The notes beneath the pieces are model-generated. The model made no database searches, had not been told where the DNA came from, and saw only the letters and a list, made by a program, of their open reading frames with translations. Shown here in pieces: positions 17,611 to 30,354 of a DNA stretch of 30,354 nucleotides. Each line of letters opens with the position of its first letter. Position 1 is the stretch's first letter. The stretch comes from a virus. The stretch is from the UHGV virus genome UHGV-0236227; one strand, 5' to 3'. The translations under genes and the position numbers were made by a program.

Positions 17611-17673
17611 TCACCCATAAGGTAACAAAAATCAAGGATAGTTACCTATGAGGTGCATTTACCTGTTGGGTAA
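17611..17673. promoter_or_regulatory. Tripartite operator cluster in the cro / repressor intergenic region
   Basis: Three palindromes: TCACC-N5-GGTAA (17611..17625), TTACC-N5-GGTGC (17642..17656), TTACC-N5-GGTAA (17659..17673); centre spacings 31 and 17 bp. Confidence 0.6.
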
Positions 17674-17728: not shown

Positions 17729-18313
17729 ATGAAAAGTATCCAGGACGTCCGCAGGCAAAATCTCAACGACTTGATCGACCGTGAATTCAATGGTGTTCAG
17801 ACGCGGATGGCAGAAAAACTTGGAACTCAGGCAAATCTGGTAAACCGCTGGGCTCTTGGCAAGAAGGTTATCGGCGACCAGGTTGCACGAAAAATTGAAG
17901 CTGCCGCCAATAAACCCCGTAACTGGCTTGATATTGATCGTTCGCTTTCTCAGGAGGGTTTTCAGCCTGTCGGCCCGAGCGATATAGGTCAGTTGGCGGC
18001 TCACAACCTGGAACGCTGGATGAGCGAAAGCCGCGACCTTTCAACACAGGGAAAACTTCACCGCGCATCCGGCGTCGCCCAGGTGACAATCAGCCGCCTG
18101 TTAAACAATGAGGTCAGCGTTTCCATTTCCACTCTGGAGAATGTTGCATCCGCATTCGGGCGTCACGGATATGAACTACTGATTCACCCGCACGACCCTG
18201 CGACTATCAACTATGACCGCTCACGCTACGCATTGTTACCCGAAACCGAGAAAGCAAAGATCGAAAGTTACATTGAATTTGTCATCAACCAGAACGAAAA
18301 AAGCAAACAATAA
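17729..18313 (+). CDS. CI-like repressor candidate with two HTH-like segments and no recognisable S24 peptidase domain
   Basis: 194-aa ORF divergent from Cro-like gene; two XRE-type HTH-like segments; no Ser-Lys peptidase motifs recognised. Confidence 0.55.
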   Translation: MKSIQDVRRQNLNDLIDREFNGVQTRMAEKLGTQANLVNRWALGKKVIGDQVARKIEAAANKPRNWLDIDRSLSQEGFQPVGPSDIGQLAAHNLERWMSESRDLSTQGKLHRASGVAQVTISRLLNNEVSVSISTLENVASAFGRHGYELLIHPHDPATINYDRSRYALLPETEKAKIESYIEFVINQNEKSKQ

Positions 18314-26032: not shown

Positions 26033-26058
26033 CCCGCAAAATATTGCGGGCTTTTTTT
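26033..26058 (+). terminator. Intrinsic terminator (CCCGCAA-aata-TTGCGGG plus 7 T) at the 3' end of the tailspike gene
   Basis: Canonical only in the plus orientation; the T-run overlaps the tailspike stop codon. Confidence 0.5.
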
Positions 26059-29000
26059 AACGTTCTTCCAGAGACTGAATCCGCTCTTTTATCTTATCCA
26101 TTTCTCTGCGCTGCCATGCTGCCTCGATATAGAATAAGAGATCAGGCCTGACCCCCCATCTAGATCCTGCTGGCGTTATTTCAACGCGCTCAATGATGTC
26201 TTCCATTACCATCACTGGATTATCATCCTCATCAACAATGATGCTCCCGTCATTATCAGTCAGCGGCATTTCCCTTTGGCCAGTAATGACGTCATCATAT
26301 ACTGCGGGATAATCGTCATAGCAAAGAAAGGCATAGCGGCATGTTGTGCTTTCTTCTTCCATGAGTCCGTGAGAAATAAGAACATCACGAAGTTGCTGCG
26401 CGATTACACCATGATGTATCCTCGCCCCTTCTTCCCCCTTTATAGCGACAGCGTTCAGCCATTTATAAGCGATATACCTGACGTCACCCCAGGCATCCAG
26501 CAATGCTTCGTCAGGAGAGACCGGCTCTGTCTTTAATGTTCCGTCACTGGTAACCACAGGATTGGAGCCAAGATAAACTGTCGAGAACCTGTTTCCCGGA
26601 CCACCAAGAGCATTTACATTATCAAGATAAGGTTTAACATCTCCGTTCTCAAAAAGATGTTCGAGTGCGTTATATACCGCGCGACGTGGAGTACTGCTTC
26701 CGGAACCATGCAACGTTATCATTGCACCATCTGCTGAAGACGTTGTTTCACCGCCGCTAACGATTAATCTCTGAGCGGTAACATCATCAGACGGTACTTT
26801 CTTCGCAATAATGGCGTAATTACCCTCAAGTTTGACTTCCGCGCGAACTTGTCCTGATGTACCTGCATGGACAGTCAGTGACTGGACGGCAACATCATCT
26901 GTGAAATCAACGGGTACAGGAACCGTCCTCACGCCTGACGTCGACATAAAAGTAGGAAGCGTTCTGTTAGGAGTGGCTCCGTAGACAAAATCCCTTGAAA
27001 CAAATTCTTCCTGTTTGATTTTCACCCTGAAACAATATAAATCAGCCGGGTGACCATCGTGAACATAAGGATATTTTCTGTTGTTATCCCCTATGCTCCA
27101 TGGGTTTAGAAAGTCTTCCCCACCGAAAATGTAGTACAGCCAGTTGTCTTTGATACAAACTGAACCAACACCAACCGCAGAGTTAACTATTCCGCCCTGA
27201 TAAATCTGATCAGTAACATTAACCCACTCTACATTATCCAGACTCCACTCATTGACGTTAACTCTGGTCATAAATGTTCTTGGATAATTTCCTGCATAAC
27301 GGTTATCAGGTTCTCCTCCTTCCCACTCACCAAATGCGCGCTCACTGCCAAAAATAATCAGCTCATCGCCAACTTTGGCAAAAGGAAGGTTTGAGTGATG
27401 AACATTATTTGGGAAGCGAAGAGAATTCCATGATGTACCTAAATCAGAGCTTCTGTGCAATGAACTACCGGGTTGAGTACTTAATGTCCCCCTGGTCGTC
27501 AGATACAGAATGCCATCATAATATTTTACACATGGCTCAGATGCATTCGCCTCATATTCTGCAGGTATGCGTCTGCGAACAAAGCTACCAGGAGAACCGA
27601 AAGCATCAGAGAAATAGAGTATCCCAAGCTCGCGTGGACCAATATCACCATTATGGTAGCCAACAGCAAAACTGTTATCGCTAATCGTCGCAAAACTGTG
27701 AATCTCAGTAACAGGAGTGCTTCCGTCAACAAAAGAAGGAATAGTTCCAAGACTGGTTTTTCTCCATGGTGACGAGTGAAATGATGTACCAAAACTCCAG
27801 TATCTACCCTCGTTATTCTGATCCACATCCTGGGTATTTTGCGTCGTAACTGTAAAAGTATTTTTATCAATAACAGTAGTCACCGTCATATTCCCGGTAA
27901 CACCTGTAACACCAGAGTTTGAGAAGTTGACAAAATCACCAGCAAATAATCCGTGATCAGTAATGCGAATATAAGCGACTTGCTGATTTGCTGCTTTCGT
28001 TATACCACCATAAGCGCGAAGGCTGCGACTCATTGGGCGATCCCACAACTCTGCAACCTGCAGTTTATTTCCGCTCACGGTCCGCGTCTCAATTACAGCA
28101 AAAAGGCGATTTCTGACAACCCCCATACTCATGCAGTGATAGTTAACTGTGGGATAGTTTTCATGTAAATCTGTAAGCCATTCCGGCGTTGTCCAGGTCT
28201 TCCCGTCATCTCCTGAGCGAACCCATGCAACATGGAGGTTATTTACACCATGGCGGTCTCCAGCCATAAAAGGCGCATAGATGACATTGTCATATACAAA
28301 CGTTTTATCCTGCGTCCAGGCGTTGTACCACGGTGTATCTGTAATTTTAAATAACTCTCCCTGGATAAAATCTTCAGAAGCATAAAAAAGAGGCTGGCCC
28401 GGTATTCTCTCAAATAAAAAACGAGCATTTTTAAATCGACTGACATCCGGAAGAGTTGATACTTTAAAAGTAAGCCCTAATCCGTCAATTTTATAACCTG
28501 GAGATGAGGCTTCAAGGCACGCGCTTATTGCAGTGGAATCGTCATTTATACCATCACCAACAGCTCCAAAATCTTTGGGGCTAATAGCATCACGCATTTT
28601 ATCCTGGAACGTTCGGTACACAGCCCCAGAACCATACTGAATAAACCAACCAAAACCACCAACAACCCCGGCGATTGCAGCATCGACATAATTACGCATT
28701 GAGCGATTATTTACAGCGTCCTGCTCAAATGATGGATCTGCAAGGTTAGAAATTTTGTTTTGCTTTGCATCGTAATATTTTGCAAGCAAAGATGGTTTCA
28801 TCAATGCACGTCTGAACCACCCAAAACATTGCTGGATCAGCATCGTCAGGTAGTCAAAGGCATCTTCATGCACTTCTGGGAAAAATTTTCCCTGATTGCG
28901 AAGGTCTGTCTCCTGCACTACATCAAGCACACGATCTATCGTAATTCGCCATCCAGTAGCAAGCGGAGACGGAAGAACCACAGAACCGCCACTATAAGTG

Positions 29001-29176
29001 CCCGCCCCAGTTACCGTATAACCGGTATCCAGAACCAATTCTGTTACGTTTCCGTTCAGGTCAGACACCTGAACAACCAGGTCTGATTTTCTGAAAATTC
29101 GAAAAGTATACGGAAACGATGTCGTAACGCCGTTACCTGTGTATTCGTTGTGGTCAACTTCGGTTGAGACCGTCAT
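26057..29176 (-). CDS. Tailspike / tail fibre with T7 gp17-like N-terminus, Asp-box beta-propeller-like centre and C-terminal intramolecular chaperone domain (endosialidase-like)
   Basis: 1039-aa ORF with GGAG Shine-Dalgarno; N-terminal particle-binding-like region; two Asp-box motifs (SGDDGKTW, SSDLGTSW); DFGAVGDG-type motif; C-terminal chaperone-like tail. Confidence 0.8.
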   Translation of the reverse strand: MTVSTEVDHNEYTGNGVTTSFPYTFRIFRKSDLVVQVSDLNGNVTELVLDTGYTVTGAGTYSGGSVVLPSPLATGWRITIDRVLDVVQETDLRNQGKFFPEVHEDAFDYLTMLIQQCFGWFRRALMKPSLLAKYYDAKQNKISNLADPSFEQDAVNNRSMRNYVDAAIAGVVGGFGWFIQYGSGAVYRTFQDKMRDAISPKDFGAVGDGINDDSTAISACLEASSPGYKIDGLGLTFKVSTLPDVSRFKNARFLFERIPGQPLFYASEDFIQGELFKITDTPWYNAWTQDKTFVYDNVIYAPFMAGDRHGVNNLHVAWVRSGDDGKTWTTPEWLTDLHENYPTVNYHCMSMGVVRNRLFAVIETRTVSGNKLQVAELWDRPMSRSLRAYGGITKAANQQVAYIRITDHGLFAGDFVNFSNSGVTGVTGNMTVTTVIDKNTFTVTTQNTQDVDQNNEGRYWSFGTSFHSSPWRKTSLGTIPSFVDGSTPVTEIHSFATISDNSFAVGYHNGDIGPRELGILYFSDAFGSPGSFVRRRIPAEYEANASEPCVKYYDGILYLTTRGTLSTQPGSSLHRSSDLGTSWNSLRFPNNVHHSNLPFAKVGDELIIFGSERAFGEWEGGEPDNRYAGNYPRTFMTRVNVNEWSLDNVEWVNVTDQIYQGGIVNSAVGVGSVCIKDNWLYYIFGGEDFLNPWSIGDNNRKYPYVHDGHPADLYCFRVKIKQEEFVSRDFVYGATPNRTLPTFMSTSGVRTVPVPVDFTDDVAVQSLTVHAGTSGQVRAEVKLEGNYAIIAKKVPSDDVTAQRLIVSGGETTSSADGAMITLHGSGSSTPRRAVYNALEHLFENGDVKPYLDNVNALGGPGNRFSTVYLGSNPVVTSDGTLKTEPVSPDEALLDAWGDVRYIAYKWLNAVAIKGEEGARIHHGVIAQQLRDVLISHGLMEEESTTCRYAFLCYDDYPAVYDDVITGQREMPLTDNDGSIIVDEDDNPVMVMEDIIERVEITPAGSRWGVRPDLLFYIEAAWQRREMDKIKERIQSLEER

Positions 29177-29280
29177 GTTAAATCTCCAGATAGTCGCAGC
29201 ACCCGTTGCGCCGCATATCTGGTTATTCTATTACCTGAAAAACCACATATGGATAGAAAGACTGTAAATATGAATAGATA

Positions 29281-29295
29281 TTACCTTTCAGGTAA
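29281..29295. promoter_or_regulatory. TTACC-N5-GGTAA palindrome (putative operator) in the divergent tailspike / small-ORF region
   Basis: TTACCTTTCAGGTAA, identical to the site at 8738..8752. Confidence 0.45.
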
Positions 29296-29332
29296 TTTGC
29301 AAAACGTGCTGGATAGCAAACAAATTATTTGC

Positions 29333-29352
29333 TACTGTATAAATATACAGTT
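29333..29352. promoter_or_regulatory. LexA (SOS) box
   Basis: TACTGTATAAATATACAGTT, i.e. CTGT-N8-ACAG with AT-rich spacer; 21 bp upstream of the small-ORF ATG. Confidence 0.6.
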
Positions 29353-29372
29353 ATTGCATGGAGAAGATTAAG

Positions 29373-29630
29373 ATGCAGCAGTATCACTATCCACTGGAAG
29401 ACGGATTTACCGAAAGGATTCACACGCCGGGAGGCGTCAGGTCACTGGTGGAGGGATCGCACTTGATGAAATTACTCCGGGATCTCGATAAGGATGGATT
29501 TAATGTCGATGGCCCACTTGCCGAACTGACTGCACTGATTAACTACGTCACCAGCTCACAGATGTCTATGCAGGATCTGCAAACACATCTCGACTATTGT
29601 GCCGAACAATTACGAAAGCAAACCAGATAA
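29373..29630 (+). CDS. LexA-controlled small protein (Tum-like antirepressor candidate)
   Basis: 85 aa from ATG 29373 with GGAG Shine-Dalgarno at 9 nt (track start 29358 lies inside the promoter region); LexA box immediately upstream. Confidence 0.5.
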   Translation: MQQYHYPLEDGFTERIHTPGGVRSLVEGSHLMKLLRDLDKDGFNVDGPLAELTALINYVTSSQMSMQDLQTHLDYCAEQLRKQTR

Positions 29631-29661
29631 GGTTTGCAATTACCAAGTGGAGTGTTTATTA

Positions 29662-29676
29662 TTACCTTTGCGGTAA
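29662..29676. promoter_or_regulatory. TTACC-N5-GGTAA palindrome (putative operator)
   Basis: TTACCTTTGCGGTAA, 32 bp after the small-ORF stop. Confidence 0.45.
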
Positions 29677-29711
29677 ATTTACATCGAACTCCTCTTGTGC
29701 CATAGTAATCG

Positions 29712-29789
29712 GGCACTGGCAAAATCCAGTGCCGGGATTGGCGTCCCGGGTTACTAAGTGGCGCATACCACGCCAGACGTGGTTTTTTT
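29712..29789 (+). terminator. Structured RNA region: two GC hairpins, then an intrinsic terminator (29768..29789)
   Basis: GGCACTGG-N6-CCAGTGCC (29712..29733), CCGGGA-N6-TCCCGG (29732..29749), CCACG-N5-CGTGG plus 7 T (29768..29789). Confidence 0.5.
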
Positions 29790-29945
29790 ATGCGTTAAGC
29801 ACAGCTATATCCGAATTATGGTGGGCTGGGCAGGGGTCCGAAAGGACGCCGGTACCACTTAGGCCGGTACGCCAACCTTGTCCAGTTCACCACCAGTAAT
29901 TGGCGTTGCGGTGGTGATTAAAATCACTAAGTGGAGATAACCACC

Positions 29946-30354
29946 ATGGCTAATGCTCAAACTGCCATCTTCAAATTTGAATCTGTTAACCCTATCCGTT
30001 CCATCATTATCGATGGCCAACCATGGTTTGTAGCCCAAGACGTTTGTAGTGCGCTGCGTATCCAAAACGTCACCCAAGCACTTGAAAAACTGGATGATGA
30101 TGAAAGGTCTATGTTCAACATAGGGCATGAACATCGTGCAATTTTTGACAGCCGAGTAAAAGAGATCAACATTATCTCCGAGTCAGGCCTCTACACACTG
30201 ATCCTCCGCTGCCGCGACGCAGTGACACCAGGCACTATCCCCTACCGCTTTCGTAAATGGGTTACAGGTGAGGTTCTTCCTCAGATCCGCCGCACCGGAA
30301 GTTACATTAAAAACTCGCTCCCGCAGGAAGAACGCATAAAGATGGTTGCCGACC
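29946..30354 (+). CDS. Bro-N / AntA-family antirepressor (partial, runs off the window end)
   Basis: ATG 29946 with GGAG Shine-Dalgarno; at least 136 codons without a stop; Bro-N-like core (IIIDGQPWFVAQDVCSAL). Absent from the ORF track because no stop is reached. Confidence 0.75.
   Translation, partial: MANAQTAIFKFESVNPIRSIIIDGQPWFVAQDVCSALRIQNVTQALEKLDDDERSMFNIGHEHRAIFDSRVKEINIISESGLYTLILRCRDAVTPGTIPYRFRKWVTGEVLPQIRRTGSYIKNSLPQEERIKMVAD

What the first reader, a model, noticed from the sequence alone, without database searches (positions are those of the whole stretch)
29281..30354. SOS-controlled antirepressor module: LexA box, small ORF and Bro-N antirepressor
A near-consensus LexA box (TACTGTATAAATATACAGTT) sits directly upstream of an 85-aa ORF with a good RBS, followed by a structured non-coding region and a Bro-N antirepressor gene. 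An operator-like palindrome lies 38 bp upstream of the LexA box and another follows the small ORF. This suggests dual control by LexA and the phage repressor, and fits a repressor that cannot self-cleave. The small protein has no motif I recognise.
Basis: partly seen in the sequence, partly recalled or inferred. Interest (0 to 1): 0.7.

Follow-up and report, generated by a model that had tools for sequence, protein, structure and literature searches.

The report
SOS-controlled phage antirepressor plus antisense-RNA-controlled second antirepressor
This is the induction switch of an epsilon15/phiV10-type E. coli prophage: a small antirepressor gene shut off by the host LexA protein, already worked out in the close relative SPC32H, sits next to a second antirepressor held in check by a P1-type antisense RNA, so it is mostly ordinary.

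Summary
The LexA box (29333-29352) is the only strong one in the window (27.8 bits; next best 11.4) and is conserved in eight Uetakeviruses from four host genera.

The 85-aa ORF matches the Ant chain of PDB 5D50 (Salmonella phage SPC32H) at E 4e-47. The window's 194-aa HTH-only repressor (17729-18313) matches the Rep chain of the same entry. SPC32H and its variant SPC32N differ by one base in the homologous LexA box. This part is a known system.

The "structured non-coding region" is two Rfam RNAs, an IsrK-like leader with terminator and a C4 antisense RNA. The C4 loops pair with two target pairs, and one target covers the Shine-Dalgarno of the Bro-N gene. Loops and targets co-vary in three specificity classes.

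The two palindromes belong to a 12-copy ATTACC-N5-GGTAAT operator family (0.8 expected). The second overlaps a separate promoter for the RNA/Bro-N unit.

The full-length Bro-N protein of relatives ends in a domain homologous to the small Ant (42% identity), so the phage carries two antirepressors with the same type of domain.

Verdict: new member of known kinds. The tandem coupling is uncharacterised. Interest is low to moderate.

The parts
29280..29296 (.). Operator O1, perfect ATTACC-N5-GGTAAT palindrome (candidate Rep binding site) between the tailspike gene and ant
   Evidence: It is one of 12 copies in the window against 0.8 expected. The half-sites are conserved and the spacer varies in 8 relatives. 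The same position is annotated 'protein_bind repressor' in epsilon15.
29310..29338 (+). Putative ant promoter: TGGATA (29310-29315), 17 nt spacer, TACTGT (29333-29338, the left arm of the LexA box)
   Evidence: This is inference only. Both hexamers and the spacing are kept in 7 of 8 relatives. The consensus scan did not report it.
29333..29352 (.). LexA (SOS) box TACTGTATAAATATACAGTT
   Evidence: Searches show it is unique and strong. It is conserved in 8 phages. SPC32N differs from SPC32H by ACAG to AAAG in the homologous box.
29373..29630 (+). ant: 85-aa small antirepressor (SPC32H Ant homolog), RBS GGAGAAG at 29360-29366
   Evidence: It matches PDB 5D50 chain E 'Anti-repressor protein' at E 4e-47 over residues 2-84. 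tblastn identity to SPC32H is 88%. It hits PHROG 450 at 9e-48 and is 100% identical to the ZX5 ORF.
29634..29662 (+). Promoter-like site P2 (TTGCAA, 17 nt, TATTAT) for the RNA/Bro-N unit
   Evidence: The promoter scan reports 9/12 matches. The site is conserved in HEMP4, phiV10, ZX5 and Tyrion.
29661..29677 (.). Operator O2 (ATTACCTTTGCGGTAAA), overlapping the -10 and start region of P2
   Evidence: One search finds the site. The half-sites are conserved and the 5-nt spacer varies among 5 phages.
29700..29789 (+). IsrK-like leader (c4-a1b1 element). It has two hairpins, the upstream target copies UUGGCGU (29738-29744) and CUAAGUGG (29754-29761), and an intrinsic terminator (stem 29767-29783 plus a T-run)
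Evidence: Rfam isrK scores 67.7 bits (gathering 50). Rfam c4-a1b1 scores 44.1 bits (gathering 46.7).
29814..29897 (+). C4-type antisense RNA. Its exposed segments are CCACUUAG (29855-29862) and ACGCCAA (29869-29875)
   Evidence: Rfam C4 scores 66 bits (gathering 45). The same family is found in HEMP4, phiV10, ZX5 and Tyrion. Pair counts give 91.7% paired against 37-49% for slid controls.
29900..29934 (+). Downstream target copies: UUGGCGU (29900-29906) and CUAAGUGG (29927-29934). The second overlaps the Shine-Dalgarno GGAG of the Bro-N gene
   Evidence: Exact complementarity to the C4 loops is shown. Three-way covariation in 3 specificity classes is shown.
29946..30354 (+). 5' part (136 codons) of the Bro-N antirepressor gene, cut by the window end. 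Full-length relatives (231-236 aa) end in an Ant-like domain
   Evidence: Pfam Bro-N hits at 3.7e-20. The HEMP4 full-length ORF is L003:4769-5476. Its C-terminal ~80 aa are 42% identical to the small Ant, E 9e-16. The ZX5 ORF4 overexpression phenotype is in PMC9782041.
17729..18313 (+). rep: 194-aa prophage repressor, the presumed target of both antirepressors
   Evidence: It matches PDB 5D50 chain A 'Repressor' at E 3.5e-42. Pfam finds HTH families only and no Peptidase_S24. It is 99% identical to the ZX5 ORF21 repressor. Operators flank it at 17658, 18370 and 18432.

Best explanation
The region is the secondary immunity and induction locus of an epsilon15/phiV10-type (Uetakevirus) E. coli prophage. 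It consists of two juxtaposed modules.

**Module 1 (29310-29630).** Host LexA binds a near-consensus SOS box that overlaps the ant promoter and keeps the 85-aa Ant silent. DNA damage removes LexA and Ant is made. Ant binds the non-cleavable repressor Rep (17729-18313), breaks up its DNA-binding tetramer, and the prophage is induced. This mechanism is shown for SPC32H and is inferred here from homology.

**Module 2 (29634 to beyond the window end).** This is a P1 immI-like anti-immunity unit.
- A promoter overlapped by Rep operator O2 drives an IsrK-like leader that ends in a terminator.
- Read-through gives a C4 antisense RNA and then the mRNA of a Bro-N protein. In full-length relatives the C-terminal domain of that protein is a paralog of Ant.
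- Two exposed C4 segments pair with two sites in the Bro-N 5' UTR, one covering the Shine-Dalgarno sequence, and so block translation.
- The same two sites occur in the leader, which can compete for C4.

The pairing and its covariation are shown by sequence. Translational repression, RNA processing and Rep binding by the Bro-N protein are inferred.

**Possible link.** No terminator separates ant from the leader. SOS transcripts probably carry the leader as their 3' end, which may tie the two modules together. This step is inference.
For: **LexA box**
- It is unique and very strong and is conserved across phages of E. coli, Salmonella, Enterobacter and Klebsiella.
- Within the 5.2-kb locus compared, SPC32H and SPC32N differ at two bases. 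One changes ACAG to AAAG in the homologous box.
- That matches the published account that this mutation makes Ant constitutive. The account is Kim & Ryu 2013, cited in PMC7380047. The abstract is from my memory, because the paper is not held.

**Ant and Rep**
- Both match the two chains of PDB 5D50.
- Rep has no S24 domain.
- Held papers describe Ant as a tetramer that binds two Rep dimers and breaks the Rep tetramer (PMC9638917; PMC9986798).
- The window's Rep is 99% identical to the ZX5 repressor and its Ant is 100% identical to the ZX5 ORF.
- ZX5 is mitomycin C inducible. Its repressor blocks lytic growth, and its Bro-N ORF4 lowers lysogen counts about 1000-fold when overexpressed (PMC9782041).

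**RNA unit**
- Rfam isrK and C4 score above their gathering thresholds here and in 4 relatives.
- The C4 loops are exactly complementary to both target pairs.
- Loops and both target pairs change together in three classes, and the cognate duplex is always the most stable.

**Operators**
- There are 12 copies against 0.8 expected.
- The same motif is annotated as repressor sites in epsilon15.

**Ant-like domain**
- The Bro-N C-terminus is homologous to Ant.
- Among 50,697 phage records the domain occurs only in the records that also hold the small Ant.
Against: - Nothing was measured on this sequence. LexA binding, Ant-Rep binding and C4 action are all inferred from homologs.
- Rep is only about 50% identical to SPC32H Rep, judged by eye from the alignment, so the interface could differ.
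- The ant promoter hexamers are weak and were not found by the consensus scan.
- The Bro-N gene is truncated in the window, so its Ant-like domain is seen only in relatives that are 98% identical over the shared part.
- Rfam c4-a1b1 scores just below its gathering threshold (44.1 against 46.7).
- There is no icd- or orf45-like coupling ORF between C4 and the Bro-N gene, unlike P1 and Gifsy-1.
- The ZX5 overexpression data are crude and do not show Rep binding.
Confidence: 0.85

Rival explanations
1. LexA box, small ORF, structured spacer and Bro-N gene form a single SOS-regulated operon. The Bro-N protein is the main SOS antirepressor, and the small ORF is an accessory or leader peptide.
For: All elements are on the same strand, and no terminator lies between the ant stop codon and 29767. 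The Bro-N ORF4 of ZX5 has an anti-lysogeny phenotype when overexpressed.
Against: The small ORF is itself the structurally characterised antirepressor. SPC32H and epsilon15 have the LexA box and small ant alone, with a terminator directly after. The Bro-N unit has its own promoter-like site and operator, a terminator, and an antisense RNA that targets its RBS. The phiV10 Bro-N gene is frameshifted in the Ant-like domain.
Confidence: 0.1
2. This is a coupled two-stage switch. The SOS-induced ant mRNA runs to the IsrK terminator, so its 3' end carries the upstream target copies. These titrate C4 RNA and release translation of the Bro-N/Ant-like protein. Rep inactivation also opens P2. Together this makes a feed-forward loop that commits the prophage to induction.
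For: No terminator lies between ant and the leader. The leader copies pair with the C4 loops more stably than the downstream copies do (-36.0 against -27.7 kcal/mol). In Gifsy-1, short IsrK RNA supplied in trans activates translation of the downstream antirepressor AnrP (PMC4825925). O2 overlaps P2.
Against: It is entirely inferential, with no expression data. The Salmonella relatives induce with the small Ant alone. In P1 the main documented role of c4 is to maintain immunity against superinfection (my own knowledge).
Confidence: 0.3
3. The Ant-like C-terminal domain of the Bro-N protein is only an oligomerisation module. The Bro-N protein then acts on another target, such as a co-resident prophage repressor or a host function, rather than on Rep.
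For: Ant is a tetramer (PMC9638917), so a homologous domain could simply drive assembly. Bro-N proteins are a heterogeneous family. The N-terminal Bro-N part is mosaic among relatives.
Against: The domain is found only in phages that also carry the small Ant, that is, the Uetakevirus type. Identity to Ant is 42% across almost the whole Ant length. ZX5 ORF4 overexpression lowers lysogeny of ZX5 itself.
Confidence: 0.15

Closest known systems
SPC32H (SPN1S-type Uetakevirus) LexA-Ant-Rep antirepression system (Kim & Ryu 2013 J Virol; Kim et al. 2016 PNAS; PDB 5D50, 5D4Z)
   Same: It has the same gene, with an 86-aa Ant 88% identical. The position next to the tailspike gene is the same. The LexA box is at the same distance from the start codon. 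It has a homologous non-cleavable Rep and the same operator motif family.
   Different: Rep is only about 50% identical, judged by eye from the alignment. SPC32H has a terminator directly after ant and no IsrK/C4/Bro-N unit.
P1/P7 immI operon (c4 antisense RNA, icd, ant1/2)
   Same: The C4 RNA is of the same Rfam family. Its two exposed segments pair with an upstream and a downstream pair of targets. The downstream target covers an RBS in front of an antirepressor gene, and a repressor operator sits at the promoter. Loop and target variation sets the specificity classes, as in P1 versus P7 (the P1/P7 facts are from my own knowledge).
   Different: There is no icd-like ORF, so the target RBS belongs to the antirepressor itself. 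An intrinsic terminator lies between the leader and C4. The antirepressor is a Bro-N/Ant-like fusion. From my own knowledge it is not a P1 Ant homolog, and this was not tested here. The operator is for an unrelated repressor.
Gifsy-1 isrK-orf45(STnc1160)-anrP locus (Hershko-Shalev et al. 2016, PMC4825925)
   Same: There is an IsrK-family leader RNA with a terminator, read-through into a structured RNA, and then an antirepressor gene.
   Different: There is no orf45 for translational coupling. Here the unit lies directly downstream of a LexA-controlled gene. No AntQ-type target is evident.
LexA-controlled antirepressors Tum (coliphage 186), GfoA/GftA (Gifsy phages) and AntC (N15)
   Same: The logic is the same: LexA represses a small antirepressor that inactivates a non-cleavable repressor (PMC7380047; PMC3121763 is listed).
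   Different: There is no sequence relationship. Pfam and PHROG give no Tum or DinI-type hit for the 85-aa protein.
P22 immI (mnt-arc-ant with sar antisense RNA)
   Same: It is a secondary immunity region next to the tailspike gene of a short-tailed temperate phage, with an antirepressor under antisense-RNA control (my own knowledge).
   Different: The regulators differ (Mnt and Arc), the RNA differs (sar), there is no LexA box, and the P22 repressor is cleavable.

Membership tests
SPC32H-type LexA/Ant/Rep antirepression system | Small (~86 aa) Ant protein homologous to SPC32H Ant | tested here: met
   PDB 5D50_E at E 4e-47 over residues 2-84 of 85. tblastn gives 88% identity to SPC32H ant.
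SPC32H-type LexA/Ant/Rep antirepression system | LexA box at the ant promoter | tested here: met
   The 20-mer is 2 mismatches from the consensus, scores 27.8 bits and is unique in the window. It aligns with the SPC32H box, whose C-to-A change distinguishes SPC32N. The overlap with the promoter is inferred.
SPC32H-type LexA/Ant/Rep antirepression system | Cognate Rep homolog without a RecA-dependent autocleavage domain | tested here: met
   PDB 5D50_A at E 3.5e-42 over residues 1-190. Pfam finds HTH_3 and HTH_26 only and no Peptidase_S24.
SPC32H-type LexA/Ant/Rep antirepression system | Physical LexA binding, and Ant-Rep binding with release of Rep from its operator | not testable with these tools
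   This needs EMSA or footprinting and pull-down experiments.
P1/P7-type C4 antisense RNA immunity (Rfam RF01695, clan CL00128) | RNA that matches the C4 covariance model above its gathering score | tested here: met
   66 bits against a gathering score of 45, with full-length model match 1-87. Relatives score 66-77.7 bits.
P1/P7-type C4 antisense RNA immunity (Rfam RF01695, clan CL00128) | Two exposed segments complementary to a downstream target pair that covers an RBS, and to an upstream pair | tested here: met
   CCACUUAG and ACGCCAA pair with 29927-29934 and 29900-29906 downstream, and with 29754-29761 and 29738-29744 upstream. Covariation appears in 3 classes.
P1/P7-type C4 antisense RNA immunity (Rfam RF01695, clan CL00128) | icd-type ORF between c4 and ant, translationally coupled to ant | tested here: not met
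   No ORF ends next to ATG 29946, and the targeted SD belongs to the Bro-N gene itself.
P1/P7-type C4 antisense RNA immunity (Rfam RF01695, clan CL00128) | C4 is processed from the operon transcript and represses translation and transcription of ant | not testable with these tools
   This needs Northern blots, RACE and reporter fusions.
IsrK sRNA (Rfam RF01394) | Match above the gathering score, including the Rho-independent terminator | tested here: met
   67.7 bits against a gathering score of 50, model 1-77. The terminator stem is 29767-29783 followed by T7.
IsrK sRNA (Rfam RF01394) | Downstream orf45-type ORF whose translation is activated by short IsrK and coupled to the antirepressor | tested here: not met
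   There is no such ORF in the window. ZX5 annotates a 37-aa 'ash family protein' over its C4 gene, which is probably a miscall.
Bro-N domain proteins (Pfam PF02498) | Bro-N domain above the Pfam gathering score | tested here: met
   72.8 bits against 25.6, residues 17-112.
Tum/DinI-type LexA-controlled antirepressors | Sequence homology to Tum or DinI | tested here: not met
   Pfam gives only a sub-threshold DUF724 hit, and PHROG gives 450, 15539 and 1760. The relationship is by analogy only.

The most novel reading that the evidence does not exclude
The two antirepressor modules may form one coupled circuit. The SOS-induced ant mRNA would carry, as its 3' end, the IsrK-like decoy that sponges the C4 antisense RNA. 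That would release translation of a second, Bro-N-fused paralog of Ant aimed at the same repressor. One repressor would then be attacked through two paralogous domains under three control layers (LexA, Rep operator, antisense RNA), and the C4 loop classes would add an RNA-based immunity specificity on top of the protein-based one.
Probability: 0.25. Interest if true: 0.55.

Novelty: new member of a known kind. Interest (0 to 1): 0.3.

Why it matters
**Annotation gap.** This prophage type matches part of the locus in 535 of 5426 complete E. coli genomes, and 96 genomes carry at least 80% of it. Carriers include K1 and extraintestinal strains such as CE10 and a cerebrospinal fluid isolate. The small gene is annotated only as 'hypothetical protein', and the two RNAs do not appear among the features annotated under the matches. 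The one experimental paper on a near-identical phage, ZX5, names the Bro-N protein as the antirepressor. It never mentions the LexA box, the small Ant or the C4 RNA.

**What correct assignment gives.** It predicts how DNA-damaging antibiotics induce these prophages. It also offers a compact natural system for studying how an SOS input and an antisense-RNA immunity input converge on one repressor.

**Scale of the advance.** There is no new principle. Each module is already known from SPC32H, P1 and Gifsy-1.

Tried and rejected
- **Key papers not held.** Kim & Ryu 2013 (DOI and PMC3807360), Kim et al. 2016 PNAS and Kropinski et al. 2007 (PMC2698709) could not be read. Their content is taken from citing papers, from GenBank annotation and from my memory of the abstracts, marked as such.
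- **Pfam on the small protein.** It gave only a sub-threshold DUF724 hit, rejected as chance.
- **Rfam snoZ30a hit inside the Bro-N gene.** E 0.66 and 17.5 bits against a gathering score of 80. Rejected.
- **Core motif CTGT-N8-ACAG.** On its own it is not enriched, with 10 matches at 1 or fewer mismatches against 10.7 expected. Only the full 20-mer is informative.
- **Promoter scan.** The sigma-70 consensus scan found no promoter for ant or for the tailspike gene. The hexamers I propose for ant rest on conservation only.
- **A possible third C4 target.** AAGUGG at 29645-29650 was considered and dropped, because it does not co-vary with the C4 loop in phiV10.
- **Database homolog search.** The search with the small Ant returned only near-identical standalone proteins, because of the word index. 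It did not recover the Bro-N fusions.
- One search failed on a term that was too short.
Full report
**Context.** The window is most of an epsilon15/phiV10-type (genus Uetakevirus) temperate phage genome.
- The region 29177-30354 is 98.2% identical to Escherichia phage HEMP4 and 92-94% identical, over 80% of its length, to vB_EcoP_ZX5 and phiV10.
- The gene to the left (26057-29176, minus strand) is a 1039-aa K1-type endosialidase tailspike.
- Some part of the locus matches 535 of 5426 complete E. coli genomes, and 96 genomes carry at least 80% of it. PGAP annotates it as 'hypothetical protein' plus 'BRO-N domain-containing protein'.

**Observation check.**
- The LexA box TACTGTATAAATATACAGTT lies at 29333-29352.
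- The core CTGT-N8-ACAG is not rare by itself. The 20-mer is the only match to the consensus at 3 or fewer mismatches, with none in 100 shuffles.
- On a weight matrix built from 25 E. coli SOS boxes that I recalled from memory, it scores 27.8 bits. That is above every training site. The next best site in the window scores 11.4, and the best score in 200 shuffles was 17.9.
- The 85-aa ORF is 29373-29630, with GGAGAAG 6 nt upstream.
- The two palindromes are at 29280-29296 and 29661-29677.
- The Bro-N gene starts at 29946 and runs off the window end.

**The small ORF and the repressor.** The 85-aa protein has no Pfam family. It matches chain E of PDB entry 5D50, 'Anti-repressor protein', at E 4e-47 over almost its full length.
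- GenBank calls the homologous gene of Salmonella phages SPC32H and SPC32N 'ant' (88% identity).
- The 194-aa ORF at 17729-18313 matches chain A of the same entry, 'Repressor', at E 3.5e-42. It has only helix-turn-helix Pfam domains and no S24 peptidase domain.
- Held papers describe SPC32H Ant as a tetramer that binds two Rep dimers and breaks the DNA-binding Rep tetramer (PMC9638917; PMC9986798). They place this system among LexA-controlled antirepressors (PMC7380047).
- From memory of the abstract, Kim & Ryu 2013 reported that SPC32H and SPC32N differ by two nucleotides, and that one of them, in the LexA site, makes Ant constitutive. The paper is not held.
- I verified the sequence side directly. 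Within the 5.2-kb locus compared, the two records differ at two positions, and one changes ACAG to AAAG in the box homologous to 29333-29352.
- The box, the ant start and a conserved TGGATA-17 nt-TACTGT arrangement are kept in eight phages of E. coli, Salmonella, Enterobacter and Klebsiella, while the flanks diverge. I propose these hexamers as the ant promoter. This is inference, because the consensus scan did not find them.

**The palindromes.** ATTACC-N5-GGTAAT occurs 12 times in the window at 2 or fewer mismatches, against 0.8 expected.
- The copies at 1 or fewer mismatches lie in gaps between long ORFs, or at the extreme 5' end of the terminase small-subunit ORF.
- The epsilon15 GenBank record annotates seven 'repressor' binding sites. 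All seven have this motif, and one sits upstream of the ant homolog gp19.
- ZX5 has ten copies at 1 or fewer mismatches, against 0.07 expected.
- O1 (29280-29296) lies about 14 bp upstream of the proposed -35, so direct repression of ant by Rep is not evident.
- O2 (29661-29677) overlaps the -10 of a separate promoter-like site, TTGCAA-17-TATTAT at 29634-29662. In five phages the O2 half-sites are conserved and the spacer varies.

**The structured spacer.** Rfam finds two RNAs on the plus strand.
- IsrK covers 29713-29789 (67.7 bits, gathering 50). It overlaps the c4-a1b1 element at 29700-29752 (44.1 bits, gathering 46.7).
- C4 antisense RNA covers 29814-29897 (66 bits, gathering 45).
- The IsrK match ends in an intrinsic terminator (stem 29767-29783).
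- The same pair of RNAs is found in HEMP4, phiV10, ZX5 and Tyrion. It is absent from SPC32H, epsilon15 and BUCT711, where ant is followed by a terminator or by unrelated genes.
- The predicted C4 fold exposes CCACUUAG (29855-29862) and ACGCCAA (29869-29875).
- Their exact complements occur twice. UUGGCGU and CUAAGUGG lie in the leader (29738-29744, 29754-29761) and again downstream (29900-29906, 29927-29934). The last copy overlaps the GGAG Shine-Dalgarno of the Bro-N gene.
- Across the five phages the loops and both target pairs change together in three classes. Site II is CUAAGUGG in the window and HEMP4, CUAAAAGG in phiV10 and ZX5, and CUACAAAGG in Tyrion. Site I changes from UUGGCGU to UUGGUCU in Tyrion.
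- The cognate C4/UTR duplex is the most stable in every row.
- On the alignment, 91.7% of the cells of the proposed helices pair, against 37-49% when partners are slid. The sample is only five sequences.
- This is the architecture of the P1/P7 immI c4 system (my own knowledge of Citron & Schuster's work) and of the Gifsy-1 isrK locus (PMC4825925). There is no icd- or orf45-like ORF.

**The Bro-N gene.** The window holds only its first 136 codons.
- In HEMP4 the ORF is 236 aa.
- Its last ~80 residues are 42% identical to the small Ant (E 9e-16). ZX5 and Tyrion show the same, while the phiV10 copy is frameshifted there.
- Among 50,697 phage records, the Ant-like domain, free or fused, occurs only in the same 34-35 records. 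All typed ones are Uetakevirus, and about 20 carry both forms.
- This argues that the fused domain also targets Rep, but the point is inferred.
- In ZX5 (Rep 99% identical, small Ant 100% identical), overexpression of the Bro-N ORF4 lowered lysogen counts about 1000-fold. Repressor overexpression abolished free phage, and mitomycin C raised the titre from 1e7 to 1e9. That paper mentions neither LexA, nor the small ORF, nor the RNAs.

**Mechanism.**
- Known from homologs: LexA holds ant off. The SOS response releases Ant, which disassembles Rep.
- Shown by sequence, with function inferred: a Rep-operated promoter drives an attenuated leader, the C4 RNA and the Bro-N/Ant-like gene, and C4 occludes that gene's RBS.
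- Inferred only: no terminator lies between ant and the leader. SOS transcripts therefore probably end with the leader, which pairs with C4 more stably than the downstream target does (-36.0 against -27.7 kcal/mol). The leader could then act as a decoy, as short IsrK activates anrP in Gifsy-1. I put this coupling at about 0.25-0.3.

**Verdict.** It also missed that the small ORF is the known antirepressor and that the spacer is a known antisense-RNA system. Each module is a member of a described family. What is uncharacterised is the tandem arrangement and the paralogous Ant domain on the Bro-N protein.

Noticed in passing
window 8737, 11867, 11885, 15314, 15376, 17658, 18370, 18432, 23686, 25392 (each 17 bp): Candidate Rep operators (ATTACC-N5-GGTAAT) are scattered over the whole genome in front of several operons, as P1 C1 operators are. 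Two pairs share a 62-bp centre-to-centre spacing (15314/15376 and 18370/18432), and one pair is 18 bp apart (11867/11885). The 62-bp spacing also occurs in epsilon15 and ZX5. It would fit a tetrameric repressor bridging two sites.
   Followed up: partly
window 29225-29253: A block (ATTCTATTACC..AACC..ATATG.AT) is invariant in 8 phages upstream of the tailspike gene, while the surrounding sequence diverges. On the minus strand it reads GGTAATAGAAT, which is an operator half-site fused to a good -10 (TAGAAT). It may be the tailspike promoter. No explanation was tested.
   Followed up: no
window 26057-29176 (minus strand): The tailspike is a K1-type endosialidase with a C-terminal S74 chaperone domain, on a Uetakevirus backbone. 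HEMP4 shares the first ~180 residues but then has an unrelated receptor-binding part, which is a clear tailspike module swap. Near-identical prophages occur in O7:K1 and cerebrospinal fluid isolates.
   Followed up: partly
L002 3650-3763 (ZX5 record 1779-1892): ZX5 annotates a 37-aa 'ash family protein' CDS lying almost entirely within its C4 antisense RNA gene (Rfam C4 at L002 3636-3721). This is probably an RNA gene miscalled as protein. The window has no corresponding ORF.
   Followed up: partly
L001 4766-5445 (phiV10 p23 and p22): The phiV10 Bro-N gene is frameshifted inside the Ant-like C-terminal domain and is annotated as two ORFs. The reference phage of this group may therefore lack a functional second antirepressor.
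   Followed up: partly
window 29908-29948: A hairpin (GUGGUG 29911-29916 with CACCAU 29942-29947) encloses the C4 target and the Shine-Dalgarno in its loop and pairs the first two bases of the AUG. The same GGUGGUGA and CCACCAU words can also pair with the two strands of the basal C4 stem. That suggests alternative structures like those described for Gifsy-1 isrK.
   Followed up: partly
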